A program made the position numbers and the translations under genes. A DNA stretch of 64,000 nt from assembly GCF_054482595.1 (NCBI RefSeq), contig NZ_CM137008.1; one strand, written 5' to 3'. Positions 44,598-52,526 of this stretch are shown one piece after another; position 1 is the stretch's first letter; the number at the start of each line of letters is the position of its first letter. The notes beneath the pieces are model-generated. The model was not told the DNA's origin and did no database searches. It saw only the letters and a program-made list of their open reading frames with translations.

Positions 44598-47261
44598 TTA
44601 CGCCAGACGCGGGTTAACTTTATCTGCATCGATGTTGAATTTGGCGATTGCGTCAGCAACCACTTTCTTATCGATTTCGCCACGTTTAGCCAGTTCGCCC
44701 AGCGCCGCAACCACGACATAAGAAGCATCAACTTCGAAGTGGTGACGCAGGTTCTCACGGCTGTCGGAACGACCGAAGCCATCAGTACCCAGTACGCGGT
44801 AGTCGTCAGCCGGTACGTAAGTACGGACCTGCTCAGCGAACAGTTTCATATAGTCGGTAGATGCCACTGCCGGAGCGTCGTTCATCACCTGCGCGATATA
44901 CGGAACGCGCGGAGTTTCCAGTGGGTGCAGCATGTTCCAGCGTTCACAATCCTGACCATCACGCGCCAGCTCGGTGAAGGAGGTCACGCTATAAACGTCA
45001 GAACCTACGCCGTAATCTTTCGCCAGGATCTCTGCCGCTTCACGGACGTGACGCAGGATAGAACCGGAGCCCAGCAGCTGAACTTTACCTTTGCTACCTT
45101 CAATGGTTTCGAGTTTGTAGATACCTTTACGGATACCTTCCTCAGCACCTTCCGGCATTGCCGGCATGTGGTAGTTTTCGTTCAGCGTGGTGATGTAGTA
45201 GTAAACGTTCTCTTGTTTTTCACCGTACATACGCTCCAGACCGTCATGCATAATGACAGCAACTTCGTAAGCGTAAGCCGGGTCGTAAGAGATACAGTTC
45301 GGAATAGTCAGCGACTGAATATGGCTGTGACCATCTTCGTGCTGCAGACCTTCACCGTTCAGGGTGGTACGACCGGAAGTACCGCCGATCAGGAAGCCAC
45401 GCGCTTGCTGGTCGCCAGCCGCCCAGCACAGATCGCCGATACGCTGGAAGCCGAACATCGAGTAATAGATGTAGAACGGAATCATCGGCAGATTGTTGGT
45501 GCTGTAAGAGGTCGCCGCTGCCAGCCAGGAACAACCTGCGCCCAGCTCGTTGATCCCTTCCTGCAGAATCTGACCTTTCTCGTCTTCTTTATAGTAAGCA
45601 ACCTGCTCGCGGTCCTGCGGGGTGTACTGCTGACCGTTCGGGCTGTAAATACCAATCTGACGGAACAGACCTTCCATACCGAAAGTACGCGCTTCGTCGG
45701 CGATGATCGGTACCAGACGATCTTTGATCGACTTGTTCTTCAGCATCACGTTCAGGGCACGAACGAAAGCGATAGTGGTAGAGATCTCTTTGCTTTGCTC
45801 TTCCAGCAGCGCGCCGAAGTCTTGCAGGCTCGGCAGCTCAAGCTTCTCGGTGAAGTTCGGCTGACGGCTTGGCAGATAACCGTGCAGTTTCTGACGCTGT
45901 GCGTGCAGATAGGTATGCTCTTCAGAACCTTCCGGGAAGGTGATGTACGGCAGTTTTTCGATATCTGCATCAGACACCGGCACATTGAAACGGTCGCGGA
46001 TGTGACGCACGCCGTCCATGTTCATTTTCTTAACCTGGTGCGCGATGTTTTTACCTTCAGCCGCGTCGCCCATGCCGTAACCTTTAATGGTATGAGCAAG
46101 GATTACTGTCGCTTTGCCTTTGGTTTCCTGCGCTTTCTTGAATGCAGCGTAGATTTTCTTCGGATCGTGACCACCACGGTTCAGTGCCCAGATCTGCTCG
46201 TCAGTCCAGTCTGCAACCAGTGCTGCGGTTTCAGGATATTTACCGAAGAAGTGTTCACGAACGTACGCACCATCTTTCGATTTGAAGGTCTGGTAGTCGC
46301 CGTCAACGGTTTCGTTCATCAGCTGGATCAGTTTACCGCTGGTATCTTTACGCAGCAGTTCATCCCAACGGCTACCCCACATCACTTTGATCACGTTCCA
46401 GCCAGCACCTTCGAAGATGCCTTCCAGTTCGTTGATGATCTTGCCGTTACCGGTGACCGGGCCGTCAAGACGCTGCAGGTTACAGTTGATAACGAAGACC
46501 AGGTTATCCAGTTTTTCACGGGTAGCGATGGTGATCGCACCTTTGGATTCCGGTTCGTCCATTTCACCGTCGCCGAGGAACGCGTAAACGGTTTGTTTAG
46601 AGGTATCTTTCAGGCCACGGTGTTCCAGATATTTCAGGAATTTAGCCTGGTAAATAGCACCAATCGGACCCAGACCCATAGATACGGTCGGGAACTGCCA
46701 GAATTCCGGCATCAGTTTCGGGTGCGGATAGGAAGAGAGGCCATTGCCGTGAACTTCCTGACGGAAGTTATCCAGCTGCTCCTGAGTCAGACGACCTTCC
46801 AGGAAAGCACGTGCGTATACGCCCGGGGAGATGTGGCCCTGGAAGTAAACCAGGTCGCCGCCATCCTGCTCGTTGCGTGCACGGAAGAAGTGGTTAAAGC
46901 ACACATCATAAATGGTCGCGGAAGACTGGAAGGACGCCATGTGGCCGCCCAGTTCGAGGTCTTTTTTCGACGCACGCAGAACCGTCATGATGGCGTTCCA
47001 GCGGATAGCTGAACGAATACGGCGTTCCAGTTCCAGATTACCCGGATACTCCGGTTGTTCTTCAACGGGGATGGTGTTGATGTAGTTGCTGATACCGGTG
47101 CCTGCGGCTACGTTGACACCGCCTTTGCGGGCTTCAGCAAGCAGTTGGTCGATCAGATACTGAGCACGCTCAACACCTTCTTCACGGATGACCGATTCGA
47201 TCGCCTGGAGCCAGTCGCGAGTTTCGATCGGATCCACGTCATTTGGGAAACGTTCTGACAT
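44598..47261 (-). CDS. aceE: Pyruvate dehydrogenase E1 component
   Basis: 887-aa ORF recognised as AceE. Confidence 0.95.
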
Positions 47262-47421
47262 GGGTTATTCCTTATCTATCTAATAACGTTGAGTTTTCTG
47301 GAACCTGTCCCATTGAACTCTCGCCGGAAAGCTCAATAAGACAGGTTCTACGTTTAGTTGCCGCGCTTTTATATGCGCTTGATTTACAACATCTTCTGGA
47401 TAATTTTTACCAGAAAAATCA

Positions 47422-48186
47422 CTAATTCTTTCGTTGCTCCAGACGACGCAGAGAACGCTCACGGCGGCTTTCTTCACGGCTTCTGTCGAGCAAAATTTCT
47501 TCGATAAAGGCCAGATGGCGATGCGATGCTTCGCGCGCTTCTTCCGGCTTACCGGCCATAATCGCTTCAAATATGCGGGTGCGGTGACTACTCACCAGCG
47601 GCAGCATCTCGCGACGCGAATAGAGCAATTCGAAGTTCTGGCGGACATTCTGGGCCAACATCGGCTCCATACACCTTAGCAGATGAAGCAGAACCACATT
47701 GTGGGCCGCTTCGGTGACGGCAATCTGATACTGGAGTACGGCGTTTGATTCCGCGTCCAGATCGCCAGACTGCTGCGCCAGTTCTATGGCGTGGTGGAGT
47801 TCACGGATGCGTTCCTTGTCTTCATCGGTACTACGCAGCGCGGCGTAATAAGCGGCGATACCTTCCAGGGCGTGTCGTGTTTCGAGCAAGTCATACTGTG
47901 ATTCAGGATGGTCGGAGAGCAGCTCCACCAGCGGATCGCTGAAGCTTTGCCATAGGCTGCTCTGGACAAAAGTGCCGCCACCCTGGCGACGAAGCAACAA
48001 GCCCTTCGCTTCGAGACGTTGAATCGCCTCACGCAATGAGGGACGGGAGACGTCAAACTGTTTTGCCAGTTCGCGTTCCGGTGGGAGTTTTTCGCCCGGG
48101 CGGAGAGTGCCTTCGAGGATCAAAAACTCCAGTTGCTGCTCAATCACATCGGAGAGTTTTGGTTGGCGGATTTTGCTGTAGGCCAT
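47422..48186 (-). CDS. pdhR: GntR-family pyruvate-responsive repressor
   Basis: ORF-track 265 aa trimmed to [17 protein letters not shown] (254 aa); N-terminal winged HTH. Confidence 0.92.
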
Positions 48187-48217
48187 GAGTTCCTGTCTTA
48201 AGCCACTTGCCGAAGTC

Positions 48218-48234
48218 AATTGGTCTTACCAATT
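48218..48234. promoter_or_regulatory. PdhR operator (autoregulatory site)
   Basis: Perfect palindrome AATTGGT-ctt-ACCAATT about 32-48 bp upstream of the pdhR start, matching the PdhR box consensus. Confidence 0.6.
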
Positions 48235-48726
48235 TCATGTCTGTGACGCTAAAGTAACAAAGTATTCACCTTATGTCCATACAGGTTTTGATTGAAATCA
48301 TGAAACTGTGCACATTTTAACAACTTGACATATATAACGTTTCAAAGTTGTAACTATGCACAAATGTAGACTTTACGTAGGAAAGGGATTTTTTAACGAT
48401 TATTAAACTATAAAAATCCGAATTGAACCGATTCACTTACCAATTTTGTGATTTTTAATTCAATTAAAACGAATTTAAATTCATTCTGCATATTGAGAGG
48501 GGTTGAGGCTGAGCTTTACAAACGGTTTCTTTTTAAGCAACTCATCTTCAACCATGCATAAAGCGGGTGCATTCGCTGCCGCATACCATTATTCTTGATC
48601 TGACGGAAGTCTTTTTGTAACAATTCAAACTTCTTTGATGTAAACAAATTAATACAACAAACGGAATTGCAAACTTACACACGCATCACTGCGTAGATCA
48701 AAAAAACAATCACCGCACGAGGTTTC

Positions 48727-50100
48727 ATGATGGAAGGTCAACAGCACGGCGAGCAGCTAAAGCGCGGCCTTAAAAACCGCCATATTCAGCTTATCGCGCT
48801 GGGTGGCGCGATAGGGACAGGACTATTCCTGGGTAGCGCCTCCGTAATACAGTCCGCAGGGCCAGGAATTATCCTGGGATACGCCATTGCTGGTTTTATC
48901 GCCTTTCTGATCATGCGTCAGCTGGGTGAAATGGTGGTCGAAGAACCTGTCGCAGGCTCCTTTAGCCACTTTGCTTATAAATACTGGGGCAGTTTTGCCG
49001 GTTTCGCCTCTGGCTGGAACTACTGGGTACTGTACGTTTTAGTTGCCATGGCAGAGCTGACTGCTGTGGGTAAATACATTCAGTTCTGGTATCCGGAAAT
49101 CCCAACCTGGGTTTCTGCCGCCGTGTTCTTTGTGGTGATTAACGCCATCAACCTGACCAACGTAAAAGTGTTTGGTGAGATGGAGTTCTGGTTTGCCATT
49201 ATCAAAGTTATTGCGGTAGTAGCGATGATCATCTTCGGCGGCTGGCTGCTGTTCAGTGGTAACGGCGGTCCGCAGGCAAGCGTTAGCAACCTGTGGGATC
49301 AGGGCGGTTTCCTGCCGCACGGCTTCACCGGGCTGGTGATGATGATGGCGATTATCATGTTCTCGTTCGGTGGTCTGGAACTGGTGGGGATCACCGCAGC
49401 AGAAGCTGATAACCCGGAGCAAAGTATCCCGAAAGCGACTAACCAGGTTATCTACCGCATCCTGATTTTCTATATTGGTTCGTTAGCCGTTCTGCTCTCA
49501 CTGATGCCGTGGACCCGCGTTACCGCCGATACCAGTCCGTTTGTGCTGATCTTCCACGAGTTAGGCGATACCTTTGTGGCGAATGCGCTGAACATCGTGG
49601 TACTGACTGCGGCGCTCTCCGTGTACAACAGCTGCGTATATTGCAACAGCCGTATGCTGTTTGGTCTGGCACAACAGGGTAATGCGCCAAAAGCGCTGGC
49701 GTCTGTCGATAAACGCGGCGTACCGGTTAACACCATTCTGGTGTCTGCGCTGGTTACAGCATTGTGCGTATTGATTAACTATCTTGCTCCGGAATCCGCA
49801 TTTGGCCTGTTAATGGCACTGGTGGTATCCGCACTGGTGATCAACTGGGCGATGATCAGTCTGGCGCATATGAAGTTCCGTCGCGCCAAGCAGGAACAAG
49901 GCGTGGTAACTCGCTTCCCTGCTCTGCTTTATCCGCTGGGTAACTGGATCTGCCTGCTGTTTATGGCGGCGGTACTGGTGATTATGCTGATGACCCCAGG
50001 AATGGCGATTTCGGTATACCTGATCCCGGTATGGCTGATCGTGTTAGGTATCGGCTATCTGTTTAAAGAGAAAACCGCCAAAGCCGTAAAAGCGCATTAA
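48727..50100 (+). CDS. aroP: Aromatic amino acid:H+ symporter (APC family)
   Basis: 457-aa ORF MMEGQQHGEQLKRGLKNRHIQLIALGGAIGTGLF, 12 predicted TM helices. Confidence 0.93.
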   Translation: MMEGQQHGEQLKRGLKNRHIQLIALGGAIGTGLFLGSASVIQSAGPGIILGYAIAGFIAFLIMRQLGEMVVEEPVAGSFSHFAYKYWGSFAGFASGWNYWVLYVLVAMAELTAVGKYIQFWYPEIPTWVSAAVFFVVINAINLTNVKVFGEMEFWFAIIKVIAVVAMIIFGGWLLFSGNGGPQASVSNLWDQGGFLPHGFTGLVMMMAIIMFSFGGLELVGITAAEADNPEQSIPKATNQVIYRILIFYIGSLAVLLSLMPWTRVTADTSPFVLIFHELGDTFVANALNIVVLTAALSVYNSCVYCNSRMLFGLAQQGNAPKALASVDKRGVPVNTILVSALVTALCVLINYLAPESAFGLLMALVVSALVINWAMISLAHMKFRRAKQEQGVVTRFPALLYPLGNWICLLFMAAVLVIMLMTPGMAISVYLIPVWLIVLGIGYLFKEKTAKAVKAH

Positions 50101-50110
50101 TCTCTCTACG

Positions 50111-50133
50111 CCCTCACCCGTACAGGGTGAGGG
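50111..50133. terminator. Hairpin between convergent aroP and ampE
   Basis: ccctcaccc-gtaca-gggtgaggg perfect 9-bp stem; no strong T-run on either side. Confidence 0.5.
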
Positions 50134-50142
50134 CAATAATCT

Positions 50143-50997
50143 TTACACCAACGCCCCGTAAATCGTCAGTAGCGCAATCACCACCACGACCACGAACGAG
50201 GTTTTCTTCGCCATTGAAACCGCTGCCTTCGGCGTCTCCACCTTATCGACATGCGGTTCACGCGCCAGAGAGAACTGCGCCAGACGCGTTAATACCTGAT
50301 ATTGCGAAGTATGGAAATCACCCAGCGAAGCAAACCAGGCCGGTAACGCTTTCTCACCATGACCGATCAAGGCATATACCACACCCGCAAGACGAACCGG
50401 CACCCAATCCAGTACATGAAGCACGGCATCAATGCCGGACTGTAAACGATGATGCGGCGTCTGGTATCGCGCCAGCCAGTATTGCCATGCACGCAAGAAC
50501 GCATACCCCATCAGCGTAACGGGTCCCCAGGTTCCCCCCACAATCAGCCAGAACAGCGGTGCAAGATAAAAACGAAAGTTAATCCACAGCAATGCATTTT
50601 GCAGCTCACGCAAATACTCACGTTCGTCGCAGCCTGCCGGGACGCCGTGAATCATGGTGAGTTCGCCAGCCATCGTGGCACGGGCATGGCTATCATTACG
50701 TGAAGCAGCTGTCAGATAAGCATGATAATGAAGACGAACTTTACCTGCGCCAATACACAGCAAACCAATCAGCAGCCACACCAGCAGCGTGGGAACGTTG
50801 AACAATACTCCCTGCAATGCGCGTAACAGTAAAAAAGTCACGCCCATCGCAATAATGGTCATGCCTAACGTGCGCCCGAGAGAAAAATGTTTCACCCGCC
50901 GAAAGAACGCTTCAAGACGATGATCAAGCTGCCAGTGCTCGCCCAACTTAAACAGGCGCTCGAAAATTAACACCAGTAAGGTTGTAAATAGCGTCAT
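50143..50997 (-). CDS. ampE: Inner-membrane protein AmpE
   Basis: ORF-track 297 aa trimmed to [15 protein letters not shown] (284 aa); ATGA overlap with ampD stop. Confidence 0.88.
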
Positions 50998-51545
50998 GTT
51001 GTCTCCTTGCTGACCAGCGCACGAAACCGTGCCCAATCAAATGCAGGACCGGGATCGGTTTTCCGATCCGGCGCAATATCACAATGGCCCGTCATGTTTT
51101 TAGCGATATCCGGATAGCAATCAATCAGTGCCCGCGTAACCGCCGCAAGCTGTTGATACTGCGCATCGGTATACGCCAGCGTATCGGTGCCTTCAAGCTC
51201 AATCCCAATAGAAAAATCATTGCAGCGTTCGCGCCCCTGATACTGAGAGACTCCCGCATGCCAGGCACGTTTATCGAAAGGAACATACTGGACTATTTCA
51301 CCATCACGGCGAATCAAACAGTGAGCGGAGACGCGCAAATGGGCGATCTCAGCAAAGAAAGGATGTGCCTGCGGATCAATAGTTCCAGTGAATAATGCGT
51401 CGATCCACGGACCGCCAAACTCGCCTGGCGGCAGGCTAATATTGTGCACCACCAGCAGGGTGGGTGTTTCGTCATCCGGGCGGCAATCGTAATGTGGTGA
51501 GGGAACGCGGCGCGCGCCAACCAGCCACCCCTGTTCTAACAACAT
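50994..51545 (-). CDS. ampD: 1,6-anhydro-N-acetylmuramyl-L-alanine amidase
   Basis: 183-aa ORF recognised as AmpD. Confidence 0.92.
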
Positions 51546-51572
51546 GCAGGATCTCCTTATATGTGGTGCTAA

Positions 51573-52526
<954 letters not shown>

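What the first reader, a model, noticed from the sequence alone, without database searches (positions are those of the whole stretch)
48187..48726. Long AT-rich pdhR-aroP divergent intergenic region with PdhR operator and TyrR-box-like sequences
Seen in sequence: a perfect PdhR palindrome (AATTGGT-N3-ACCAATT at 48218-48234), a second half-site near 48440, and TGTAAA-N6-AATACA near 48640 resembling a TyrR box upstream of aroP. At 540 bp the region is large enough to host a small RNA; I recall a small RNA being annotated near here in E. coli but cannot verify this.
Basis: partly seen in the sequence, partly recalled or inferred. Interest (0 to 1): 0.3.

Follow-up and report, generated by a model that had tools for sequence, protein, structure and literature searches.

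The report
Known pdhR–aroP regulatory region, no sRNA

Summary
The window is E. coli: 100% identical to O157:H7/O55:H7 strains here, and 4 differences from K-12 in 701 bp. Bases 48187-48726 are the pdhR(-)/aroP(+) divergent intergenic region.

- **PdhR operator:** the palindrome at 48218-48234 is real, unique in 64 kb, invariant in 79 taxa, and is the published operator (+11 to +27 of the pdhR start at 48244).
- **TyrR boxes:** TGTAAAcaaattAATACA (48639-48656) is the strong TyrR box of aroP. Both keep the G-N14-C signature in 79 of 79 sequences.
- **"Second half-site":** ACCAATT at 48439-48445 is at chance level and is not conserved.
- **Small RNA:** I found no evidence for one in the interval. 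There is no Rfam match, no terminator, no fold signal and no K-12 annotation. The remembered sRNA is Tp2 (RF02030) at 47264-47377, in the pdhR-aceE gap.
- **Third transcript start:** one is already published, the TyrR-activated divergent promoter P3 (-10 at 48588-48583). It represses aroP P1 by competing for RNA polymerase, and in B2 strains it drives the usp island inserted here.

Verdict: already known, low interest. The only loose end is a length-conserved AT-rich spacer that carries a conserved Cra-like palindrome.

The parts
48184..48186 (-). pdhR start codon (ATG, read on the minus strand)
   Evidence: Translation MAYSKIRQ... matches PdhR. The K-12 annotation gives pdhR at 122092, which maps colinearly to 48186.
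48187..48244 (-). pdhR 5' untranslated leader; transcription start at 48244
   Evidence: The published promoter sequence GTATGGACATAAGGTGAATACTTTGTTACTTTAGCGTCA, with its start at an A 58 nt before the ATG (PMC2759082), matches the minus strand here exactly.
48218..48234 (.). PdhR operator AATTGGTCTTACCAATT (+11 to +27)
   Evidence: Unique in the window at fewer than 3 mismatches. Conservation 0.99 in 79 taxa. It is the listed (type-A) gSELEX peak for this spacer, intensity 9889 against a cut-off of 500, with a 14/14 box centred at K-12 122052, which is window 48226.
48251..48279 (-). pdhR core promoter: -10 TACTTT (48256-48251), 17-bp spacer, -35 TGGACA (48279-48274)
   Evidence: Position inferred from the published start site. 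The whole 48245-48300 block is 96% conserved, spacer included.
48288..48301 (.). FNR site TTGATtgaaATCAt, centred at -50.5 from the pdhR start
   Evidence: 9 of 10 match to TTGAT-N4-ATCAA and invariant in the alignment. The published FNR ChIP-seq peak is at K-12 121987 (window 48291), with the site at -50.5 and direct repression (PMC3688515).
48307..48322 (.). CRP-like sequence TGTGCacatttTAACA (centre about -70.5); assignment inferred only
   Evidence: 2 mismatches to the CRP consensus, which alone is not above chance. Its arms are conserved. CRP activation of pdhR is published, but the exact site is not available to me.
48337..48365 (.). Conserved upstream block, unassigned; candidate for one of the two published ArcA binding regions
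   Evidence: Conservation about 0.8. Two ArcA regions upstream of pdhR are reported without coordinates (PMC3798270).
48366..48516 (.). Central AT-rich spacer: sequence evolves almost neutrally, but length and AT-richness are conserved
   Evidence: Identity 0.50 against 0.58 at pdhR third codon positions. Length 141-164 bp (median 152) and GC 24-44% in 79 taxa. In CFT073 the usp island replaces 48377-48556.
48424..48435 (.). Conserved palindrome TGAACCGATTCA, Cra/LacI-family-like; function untested
   Evidence: 1 mismatch to TGAAWCGWTTCA. Conservation 0.94 inside an otherwise neutral spacer.
48439..48445 (.).
   Evidence: Conservation 0.36 with no column at or above 0.9. The 7-mer frequency in the window matches expectation. 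gSELEX lists one box only.
48517..48536 (.). Conserved block tACAA..G.tttCTTTTTa, unassigned
   Evidence: Conservation 0.79, with CTTTTT invariant.
48583..48613 (-). aroP divergent promoter P3: -10 TGGTAT (48588-48583) and -35 AAGACT (48613-48608)
   Evidence: The -10 hexamer TGGTAT is given in PMC7142922. The -35 was placed by alignment to CFT073's published AGTACT, which differs at 2 bases as the paper states.
48590..48595 (+). Candidate -10 (TATTCT) of the major aroP promoter P1, abutting the P3 -10 on the other strand; inferred
   Evidence: Positions 48591-48596 (ATTCTT) are invariant; position 48590 is C in most taxa. P1 is published as overlapping P3. The original mapping papers were not readable.
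48639..48656 (.). Strong TyrR box TGTAAAcaaattAATACA
   Evidence: 2 mismatches to the consensus. GTAAA and the ACA of the right arm (48654-48655 in all 79, 48656 in 75) are conserved, with G48640-N14-C48655 kept in 79 of 79. Strong and weak boxes lying upstream of the P3 -35 are published.
48662..48679 (.).
   Evidence: G48663 and C48678 are invariant in 79 of 79, and the arms are conserved. Its centre is 23 bp from the strong box. An alternative candidate at 48617-48634 is not conserved (0.41).
48664..48693 (+). Predicted pairing site for the R1 region of the GcvB small RNA in the aroP leader (prediction)
   Evidence: RNAduplex gives -28.4 kcal/mol with GcvB nt 63-95, including a perfect AATTGCAAAC core. 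GcvB repression of aroP through R1 is published (PMC11878033).
48716..48729 (+). aroP ribosome-binding site (CACGAGG) and start codon
   Evidence: Conservation 0.95; ORF call.
47264..47377 (+). Tp2 small RNA (RF02030). It lies outside the finding's interval, in the pdhR-aceE gap and antisense to the operon
   Evidence: Rfam score 103.4 bits against a gathering score of 50, E = 6e-19. Also found at the same place in seven other genera. The literature places Tp2 in the pdhR-aceE gap.

Best explanation
The interval is the shared control region of two divergently transcribed E. coli units, pdhR-aceEF-lpd (minus strand) and aroP (plus strand). It is built from protein-binding sites and promoters, not from an RNA gene.

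**pdhR side**
- Transcription starts at 48244.
- PdhR binds the perfect palindrome at +11 to +27. It blocks its own operon until pyruvate releases it.
- FNR binds at -50.5 and represses the operon anaerobically.
- CRP, ArcA and Cra add further inputs, within or near a block of about 160 bp that is almost invariant across Enterobacteriaceae.

**aroP side**
- The major promoter P1 and the opposite-strand promoter P3 have adjacent -10 elements, so only one RNA polymerase can occupy the pair.
- TyrR, loaded with phenylalanine, tyrosine or tryptophan, binds the strong box (48639-48656) and the weak box (48662-48679). These lie upstream of P3 and inside the aroP leader.
- Bound TyrR recruits polymerase to the weak, largely non-productive P3, and this shuts P1.
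- The same leader is then targeted at the RNA level by GcvB.

**Between the two sides** lies an AT-rich spacer of about 150 bp. In about 20% of complete E. coli genomes this region is interrupted, in at least some by the usp toxin island, which is read from P3.

**What is shown and what is inferred**
- Shown here: the positions, uniqueness and conservation of the sites.
- Taken from the literature: protein binding and the polymerase-competition mechanism.
- Inferred: the P1 -10, the CRP-like and Cra-like assignments, and the GcvB duplex.
For: - Identity of the locus.
- PdhR box: unique, 0.99 conserved, and equal to the published gSELEX box, at +11 to +27 of the published start site.
- FNR site: my computed centre of -50.5 equals the published value, and the ChIP peak maps to 48291.
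- TyrR boxes: G-N14-C is invariant in 79 of 79 sequences for both boxes.
- P1/P2/P3 and the TyrR-polymerase competition: PMC7142922 and PMC3167631. The P3 hexamers were located in the sequence.
- Conservation against a neutral baseline.
- GcvB.
- No RNA-gene signals.
- No coding signal.
Against: - No binding or transcript experiment could be run here.
- The primary aroP promoter papers (PMC179240, PMC179241, PMC107600) were not readable, so the P1 and P2 start sites are inferred.
- Consensus matches for TyrR, CRP, FNR and Cra are individually no better than chance in 64 kb. Their assignment rests on conservation and the literature.
- Several conserved islands remain unassigned (48337-48365, 48392-48408, 48424-48435, 48517-48536).
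- Absence of a terminator or an Rfam match does not exclude an unstructured or Rho-terminated transcript.
Confidence: 0.9

Rival explanations
1. The long gap hosts an independent small regulatory RNA gene.
For: - The gap is long (540 bp), and its length is conserved at 524-653 bp in 78 species.
- A third promoter, P3, fires into it.
- Conserved islands exist in the middle of the gap.
Against: - No Rfam match at E<=1 in the window, and none at gathering score in eight other genera apart from Tp2.
- No ncRNA is annotated in K-12 here, although the same record annotates gcvB.
- No terminator-like hairpin on either strand, even with lenient rules.
- Fold z-scores range from -2.4 to +1.8 over 44 tests.
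- The stretch downstream of P3 evolves at a neutral rate and is deleted in B2 strains.
- No open-access paper links pdhR, aroP, sRNA and intergenic.
- The remembered sRNA is Tp2, in the neighbouring gap.
Confidence: 0.05
2. PdhR binds two sites, the palindrome plus the ACCAATT half-site about 210 bp upstream, and loops the DNA to also control aroP.
For: - An exact 7-mer half-site lies at 48439-48445. The expectation inside the 540 bp is only 0.12.
- gSELEX classes the spacer as lying upstream of both divergent genes.
Against: - The half-site is not conserved: 0.36, below the neutral 0.58.
- It lacks the GGT-N3-ACC core partner; the only GGTNNNACC in the gap is the main box.
- gSELEX lists one box.
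- The site is removed by the usp island in B2 strains with no known consequence.
Confidence: 0.03
3. The AT-rich centre of the gap is a decayed remnant or attachment scar of a horizontally acquired island such as PAIusp, rather than ancestral DNA.
For: - Low GC, falling to 24%.
- The same spot holds the usp island in about 1060 of 5423 E. coli genomes.
- H-NS binding near here is reported.
Against: - A spacer of the same length (141-164 bp) and AT-richness is present in all 79 taxa examined, including Serratia, and carries conserved islands.
- In CFT073 the island replaces 48377-48556 rather than sitting beside it.
Confidence: 0.05
4. A small protein is encoded in the gap.
For: Three short minus-strand ORFs (15-24 codons, within 48249-48363) stay open in 62-70 of 78 species.
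Against: - They lie in DNA that is nearly invariant for promoter reasons.
- They start with TTG or GTG and lie upstream of the pdhR start site.
- The variable columns show no codon periodicity (15/10/9).
- All other ORFs in the gap are intact in 22 or fewer of 78 species.
- Nothing is annotated in K-12.
Confidence: 0.02

Closest known systems
PdhR operator of the E. coli K-12 pdhR-aceEF-lpd promoter (Quail & Guest 1995; gSELEX, Anzai et al. 2020, PMC7660256)
   Same: Identical 17-bp sequence, the same position (+11 to +27, centred at K-12 122052), and the same flanking promoter sequence.
   Different: Nothing in the operator. The window strain differs from K-12 at 4 of 701 bases, none of them in a recognised site.
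aroP P1/P2/P3 promoters with strong and weak TyrR boxes (Wang, Yang, Pittard 1997-98; summarised in Rihtar et al. 2020, PMC7142922)
   Same: The P3 -10 TGGTAT, a -35 that differs from UTI89/CFT073 at two bases, two TyrR boxes upstream of P3, and P1 overlapping P3.
   Different: Nothing detectable. This strain, like K-12, lacks the usp island that P3 drives in B2 strains.
Tp2 small RNA, Rfam RF02030
   Different: It lies at 47264-47377, in the pdhR-aceE gap, and not in 48187-48726. It is not annotated in current K-12 RefSeq, and its deletion phenotype is attributed to polar effects on aceEF.
[quoted passage not shown]
   Same: Same locus. The window carries the unoccupied form of the site.
   Different: No usp or imu genes are present. 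In CFT073 the island, plus an IS3 element, replaces 48377-48556, and the aroP-proximal 170 bp are strongly diverged.

Membership tests
PdhR operator (PdhR box) | 17-bp palindrome AATTGGTnnnACCAATT with a GGTnnnACC core | tested here: met
   14 of 14 specified bases at 48218-48234. It is the only match in 64 kb with fewer than 3 mismatches.
PdhR operator (PdhR box) | Located just downstream of the pdhR transcription start (+11 to +27) | tested here: met
   The published start site and promoter sequence map to 48244, which places the box at +11 to +27.
PdhR operator (PdhR box) | Conserved in orthologous promoters | tested here: met
   Mean identity 0.99, with every column at or above 0.9 in 79 taxa.
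PdhR operator (PdhR box) | Pyruvate-sensitive PdhR binding | not testable with these tools
   Published for the identical K-12 sequence (gSELEX peak of intensity 9889 against a cut-off of 500).
TyrR box pair (TyrR regulon operator) | TGTAAA-N6-TTTACA-like 18-mer with the symmetric G-N14-C | tested here: met
   Strong box 48639-48656 has 2 mismatches. Weak box 48662-48679 has 4 mismatches. G and C are invariant in 79 of 79 sequences in both.
TyrR box pair (TyrR regulon operator) | Match to the consensus exceeds chance | tested here: not met
   17 sites with up to 3 mismatches against 25 expected, and a second 2-mismatch site at 39070. Support comes from conservation and the literature, not from the consensus score.
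TyrR box pair (TyrR regulon operator) | A weak box adjacent to a strong box on the same helical face | tested here: inconclusive
   The centres are 23 bp apart, roughly two helical turns. The phasing requirement is stated, but I could not check the published box coordinates.
TyrR box pair (TyrR regulon operator) | TyrR binding and aromatic-amino-acid-dependent regulation | not testable with these tools
   Reported for K-12 by Wang et al. 1997, as cited.
Stand-alone bacterial small RNA gene | Match to a described RNA family | tested here: not met
   No Rfam match at E<=1 inside 48187-48726. In eight orthologous loci only Tp2 was found.
Stand-alone bacterial small RNA gene | Own promoter plus an intrinsic terminator | tested here: not met
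   No terminator-like sites. A lenient scan found only hairpins of -4 to -6 kcal/mol.
Stand-alone bacterial small RNA gene | Fold more stable than shuffled sequence | tested here: not met
   z-scores from -2.4 to +1.8 in 44 window-and-strand tests.
Stand-alone bacterial small RNA gene | A discrete transcript detected | not testable with these tools
   No transcript data were available. The K-12 record annotates no RNA here.
Tp2 sRNA (RF02030) | Covariance-model score above the gathering score, inside the finding's interval | tested here: not met
   The 103-bit hit is at 47264-47377, 810 bp outside the interval.
FNR site | TTGAT-N4-ATCAA at the published position | tested here: met
   9 of 10 match at 48288-48301, centred at -50.5. 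This equals the published -50.5, and the ChIP peak maps to 48291.
Cra (FruR) operator | TGAAWCGWTTCA-like palindrome with a central CG | tested here: inconclusive
   TGAACCGATTCA at 48424-48435 has 1 mismatch and is 0.94 conserved. The pattern count in the window equals chance, and the published Cra ChIP-exo site at pdhR is described as lying downstream of the promoters.

The most novel reading that the evidence does not exclude
The length-conserved, AT-rich central spacer may be more than filler. Its conserved islands, above all the Cra-like palindrome TGAACCGATTCA at 48424-48435 and also TTTAAC-N5-tgAAAC at 48392-48408 and CTTTTT at 48528-48533, could form an undescribed regulatory module. 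Such a module might be a distal Cra or other LacI-family operator, or nucleoid-protein phasing, that couples the pdhR and aroP promoters. Alternatively, the TyrR-activated P3, which points toward pdhR, could act as a distal, aromatic-amino-acid-responsive input into pdhR expression.
Probability: 0.15. Interest if true: 0.3.

Novelty: already known. Interest (0 to 1): 0.08.

Why it matters

The region is still a good textbook case of how much regulation one intergenic gap can hold:
- an autoregulatory metabolite-sensing operator;
- oxygen and carbon global regulators;
- repression of one promoter by recruiting polymerase to an overlapping one;
- control by a small RNA acting from elsewhere in the genome (GcvB);
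- capture of the idle promoter P3 by a horizontally acquired toxin island.

The practical value of this check is negative. It removes a suspected sRNA locus and corrects where Tp2 actually lies.

Tried and rejected
**Tests for an RNA gene in the interval (all negative)**
- An Rfam E-value scan of 44000-52000 and a gathering-score scan of eight orthologous loci found only Tp2, outside the interval.
- The consensus promoter/terminator scan found nothing. It also misses the real, weak pdhR, P1 and P3 promoters, so its silence on promoters means little.
- A lenient hairpin-plus-T-run scan and sliding fold z-scores gave no signal.

**Test for a small protein (rejected)**
- ORF intactness and codon periodicity were checked. 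The apparent conservation of three short ORFs is explained by invariant promoter DNA.

**Candidate sites rejected**
- An alternative weak TyrR box, TGTAACaattcaAACTTC at 48617-48634, is not conserved and lacks the C of G-N14-C.

**Literature that could not be reached**
- The primary aroP promoter papers, the Thomason dRNA-seq paper and the Shimada Cra SELEX paper are not held. As a result, the P1/P2 start sites and the Cra coordinates remain unverified.
- The supplement of the Cra ChIP-exo paper is not held.
- One literature search was wasted on the ambiguous term 'tp2'.

**Method note**
- Full-length GcvB duplex folding gave a meaningless 150-nt duplex. I repeated it with the R1 region only.

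Full report
**Locus.** The ORFs around the finding are aceE (44598-47261, minus strand), pdhR (minus), aroP (48727-50100, plus), ampE and ampD. Bases 48100-48800 are 100% identical to E. coli O157:H7 and O55:H7 chromosomes, and 5423 of 5426 complete E. coli genomes match. The stretch is colinear with K-12 and differs at 4 positions in 701 bp: 48387, 48388, 48488 and 48710. None of these falls in a recognised site. pdhR's real start is the ATG at 48186; the ORF tool's TTG at 48219 is an artefact. The gap is therefore 48187-48726, 540 bp, as in K-12 (121552-122091), where RefSeq annotates nothing between the two genes. GC is 35% overall and drops to 24% at 48400-48499.

**Checking the three motifs.**
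- *PdhR palindrome.* AATTGGTCTTACCAATT lies at 48218-48234. It is the only site in 64 kb with fewer than 3 mismatches to AATTGGTNNNACCAATT.
- *"Second half-site".* ACCAATT at 48439-48445 is real. However, the 7-mer occurs 7 times in the window, close to my uniform-composition estimate of about 7.8 (counts). It has no GGT-N3-ACC partner and is not conserved (0.36).
- *TyrR-like box.* TGTAAAcaaattAATACA lies at 48639-48656 with 2 mismatches. As a consensus match this is not above chance: another 2-mismatch site lies at 39070, and there are 17 sites with up to 3 mismatches against 25 expected.

**Comparative test.** A scan of one genome per species with PdhR returned 80 loci. In 78 of them, from Escherichia to Serratia, aroP lies divergently upstream of pdhR, and the gap is 524-653 bp. 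I aligned these gaps and compared conservation with a neutral baseline, the third codon positions of pdhR. That baseline is 0.58 identity to the window, with 17% of positions at or above 0.9.

| Segment | Coordinates | Mean identity |
|---|---|---|
| PdhR box | 48218-48234 | 0.99 |
| Core promoter + FNR | 48245-48300 | 0.96 |
| Further upstream | 48301-48365 | 0.77 |
| Central spacer | 48366-48516 | 0.50 (about neutral) |
| Island in spacer (TGAACCGATTCA) | 48424-48435 | 0.94 |
| Block | 48517-48536 | 0.79 |
| P1/P3 core | 48556-48596 | 0.80 |
| Strong TyrR box | 48639-48656 | 0.81 |
| Second box, CGGAATtgcaaaCTTACA | 48662-48679 | 0.76 |
| aroP ribosome-binding site | 48716-48726 | 0.95 |

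A second island in the spacer, at 48392-48408, is visible in the consensus but was not scored separately. In both TyrR boxes the symmetric G and C (G-N14-C) are invariant in 79 of 79 sequences. This confirms a strong-plus-weak pair with centres 23 bp apart.

**Anchoring to the literature, pdhR side.**
- PMC2759082 gives the pdhR promoter sequence and a start at an A 58 nt before the ATG. That sequence is the minus strand of 48244-48282, so the start is 48244.
- From this I infer the -10 as TACTTT (48256-48251) and the -35 as TGGACA (48279-48274). The PdhR box then spans +11 to +27.
- PMC7660256 lists the aroP/pdhR spacer among the PdhR genomic-SELEX peaks with an intensity of 9889 (cut-off 500), with one 14/14 box centred at K-12 122052, which is window 48226.
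- PMC3688515 reports an FNR ChIP-seq peak at K-12 121987 (window 48291), with a site at -50.5 and direct repression. The sequence TTGATtgaaATCAt at 48288-48301 is centred at exactly -50.5.
- PMC3798270 reports two ArcA regions upstream of pdhR.
- PMC3974632 describes FNR acting on both aroP and pdhR.
- PMC5888115 reports CRP activation and Cra repression of the operon.

**Anchoring to the literature, aroP side.**
- PMC7142922 summarises the Pittard laboratory's work. There is a major promoter P1, a second promoter P2 21 bp downstream, and a divergent P3 that overlaps P1.
- TyrR bound to the strong and weak boxes upstream of P3 recruits RNA polymerase to the weak, non-productive P3, and this represses P1. 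PMC3167631 restates the mechanism.
- The published P3 -10, TGGTAT, is the minus strand of 48588-48583. Alignment with CFT073's published -35 (AGTACT) places the window's -35 at 48613-48608 as AAGACT. This differs at two bases, as the paper states.
- The invariant ATTCTT (48591-48596) within TATTCT at 48590-48595 on the plus strand abuts the P3 -10 and is my inferred P1 -10.
- aroP is also a verified target of the GcvB small RNA through its R1 region. A duplex prediction places the best site at 48664-48693, at -28.4 kcal/mol. This is a prediction only.

**The small-RNA idea.**
- Rfam finds nothing in the interval at E<=1. It finds Tp2 (RF02030, 103 bits) at 47264-47377 on the plus strand, in the pdhR-aceE gap.
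- Seven of eight other genera show Tp2 at the same place and nothing in the pdhR-aroP gap.
[quoted passage not shown] It also warns that the deletion phenotype reflects polar effects on aceEF.
- Inside the interval there is no terminator-like hairpin and no fold-energy signal, with z from -2.4 to +1.8.
- No ORF is conserved for reasons other than invariant promoter DNA.
- No open-access paper links pdhR, aroP, sRNA and intergenic.
- The only extra transcript start known here is P3.

**What else is there.**
- About 1060 of 5423 E. coli genomes have the gap interrupted.
- In CFT073, an IS3 element plus an island of about 4 kb replaces window 48377-48556. The island carries an Hcp-nuclease toxin gene (usp, annotated tssD) and immunity genes.
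- This is the published PAIusp, which P3 transcribes and H-NS represses.
- The aroP-proximal 170 bp are strongly diverged in CFT073, while the aroP coding sequence is identical.
- The central spacer that the island replaces is ancestral, not a scar. It is present in all 79 taxa, at 141-164 bp and 24-44% GC.

**Verdict.** The sequence observations are real. The PdhR and TyrR assignments are correct and long known. The half-site is chance, and the sRNA suggestion is not supported. What remains unexplained is minor: the conserved length of a nearly neutral AT-rich spacer, and the unassigned conserved islands within it, notably a Cra-like palindrome.

Noticed in passing
window 47264-47377 (+), with a weaker hit at 47301-47348 (-): Tp2 sRNA model hit in the pdhR-aceE gap, antisense to the operon. 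The weaker reverse-strand hit arises because the model's central hairpin is a near-palindrome. This palindrome overlaps the published aceE internal promoter sequence (AACCTGTCTTATTGAGCTTTCCGGCGAGAGTTCAATGGG). K-12 RefSeq does not annotate tp2.
   Followed up: partly
window 48328-48556; L002 12229-17665 (CFT073): About 20% of complete E. coli genomes have this gap split. In CFT073 an IS3 element sits at about window 48328 (about -84 of the pdhR promoter), and the usp/imu toxin-immunity island replaces 48377-48556. The aroP-proximal flank is only 82% identical to the window, although the aroP coding sequence is identical.
   Followed up: partly
window 48366-48516: The central spacer diverges at about the neutral rate, yet keeps its length (141-164 bp) and low GC (24-44%) in 79 enterobacterial taxa. 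It contains conserved islands at 48392-48408 and 48424-48435 (TGAACCGATTCA, Cra-like).
   Followed up: partly
L065, L069-L075 (Klebsiella, Raoultella), aligned near window 48703: These genera carry an insertion of about 110 bp in the aroP leader, just upstream of the ribosome-binding site. No Rfam family matched it at gathering score. Serratia has about 60 extra bp near window 48517.
   Followed up: no
window 48020-48031: A Cra-like sequence, TGAATCGCCTCA (2 mismatches), lies inside the pdhR coding region. It might correspond to the published Cra ChIP-exo site described as downstream of the pdhR promoters.
   Followed up: no
window 48727-48732; L002 17835: aroP begins with a tandem ATGATG. CFT073 has ATAATG and is annotated from the second ATG, so the second codon may be a sufficient start, or the true one.
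   Followed up: no
window 29100-29115: A perfect CRP consensus palindrome, TGTGATGACGGTCACA (0 mismatches), lies elsewhere in the window. By colinearity with K-12 it would fall near the gcd-hpt region.
   Followed up: no
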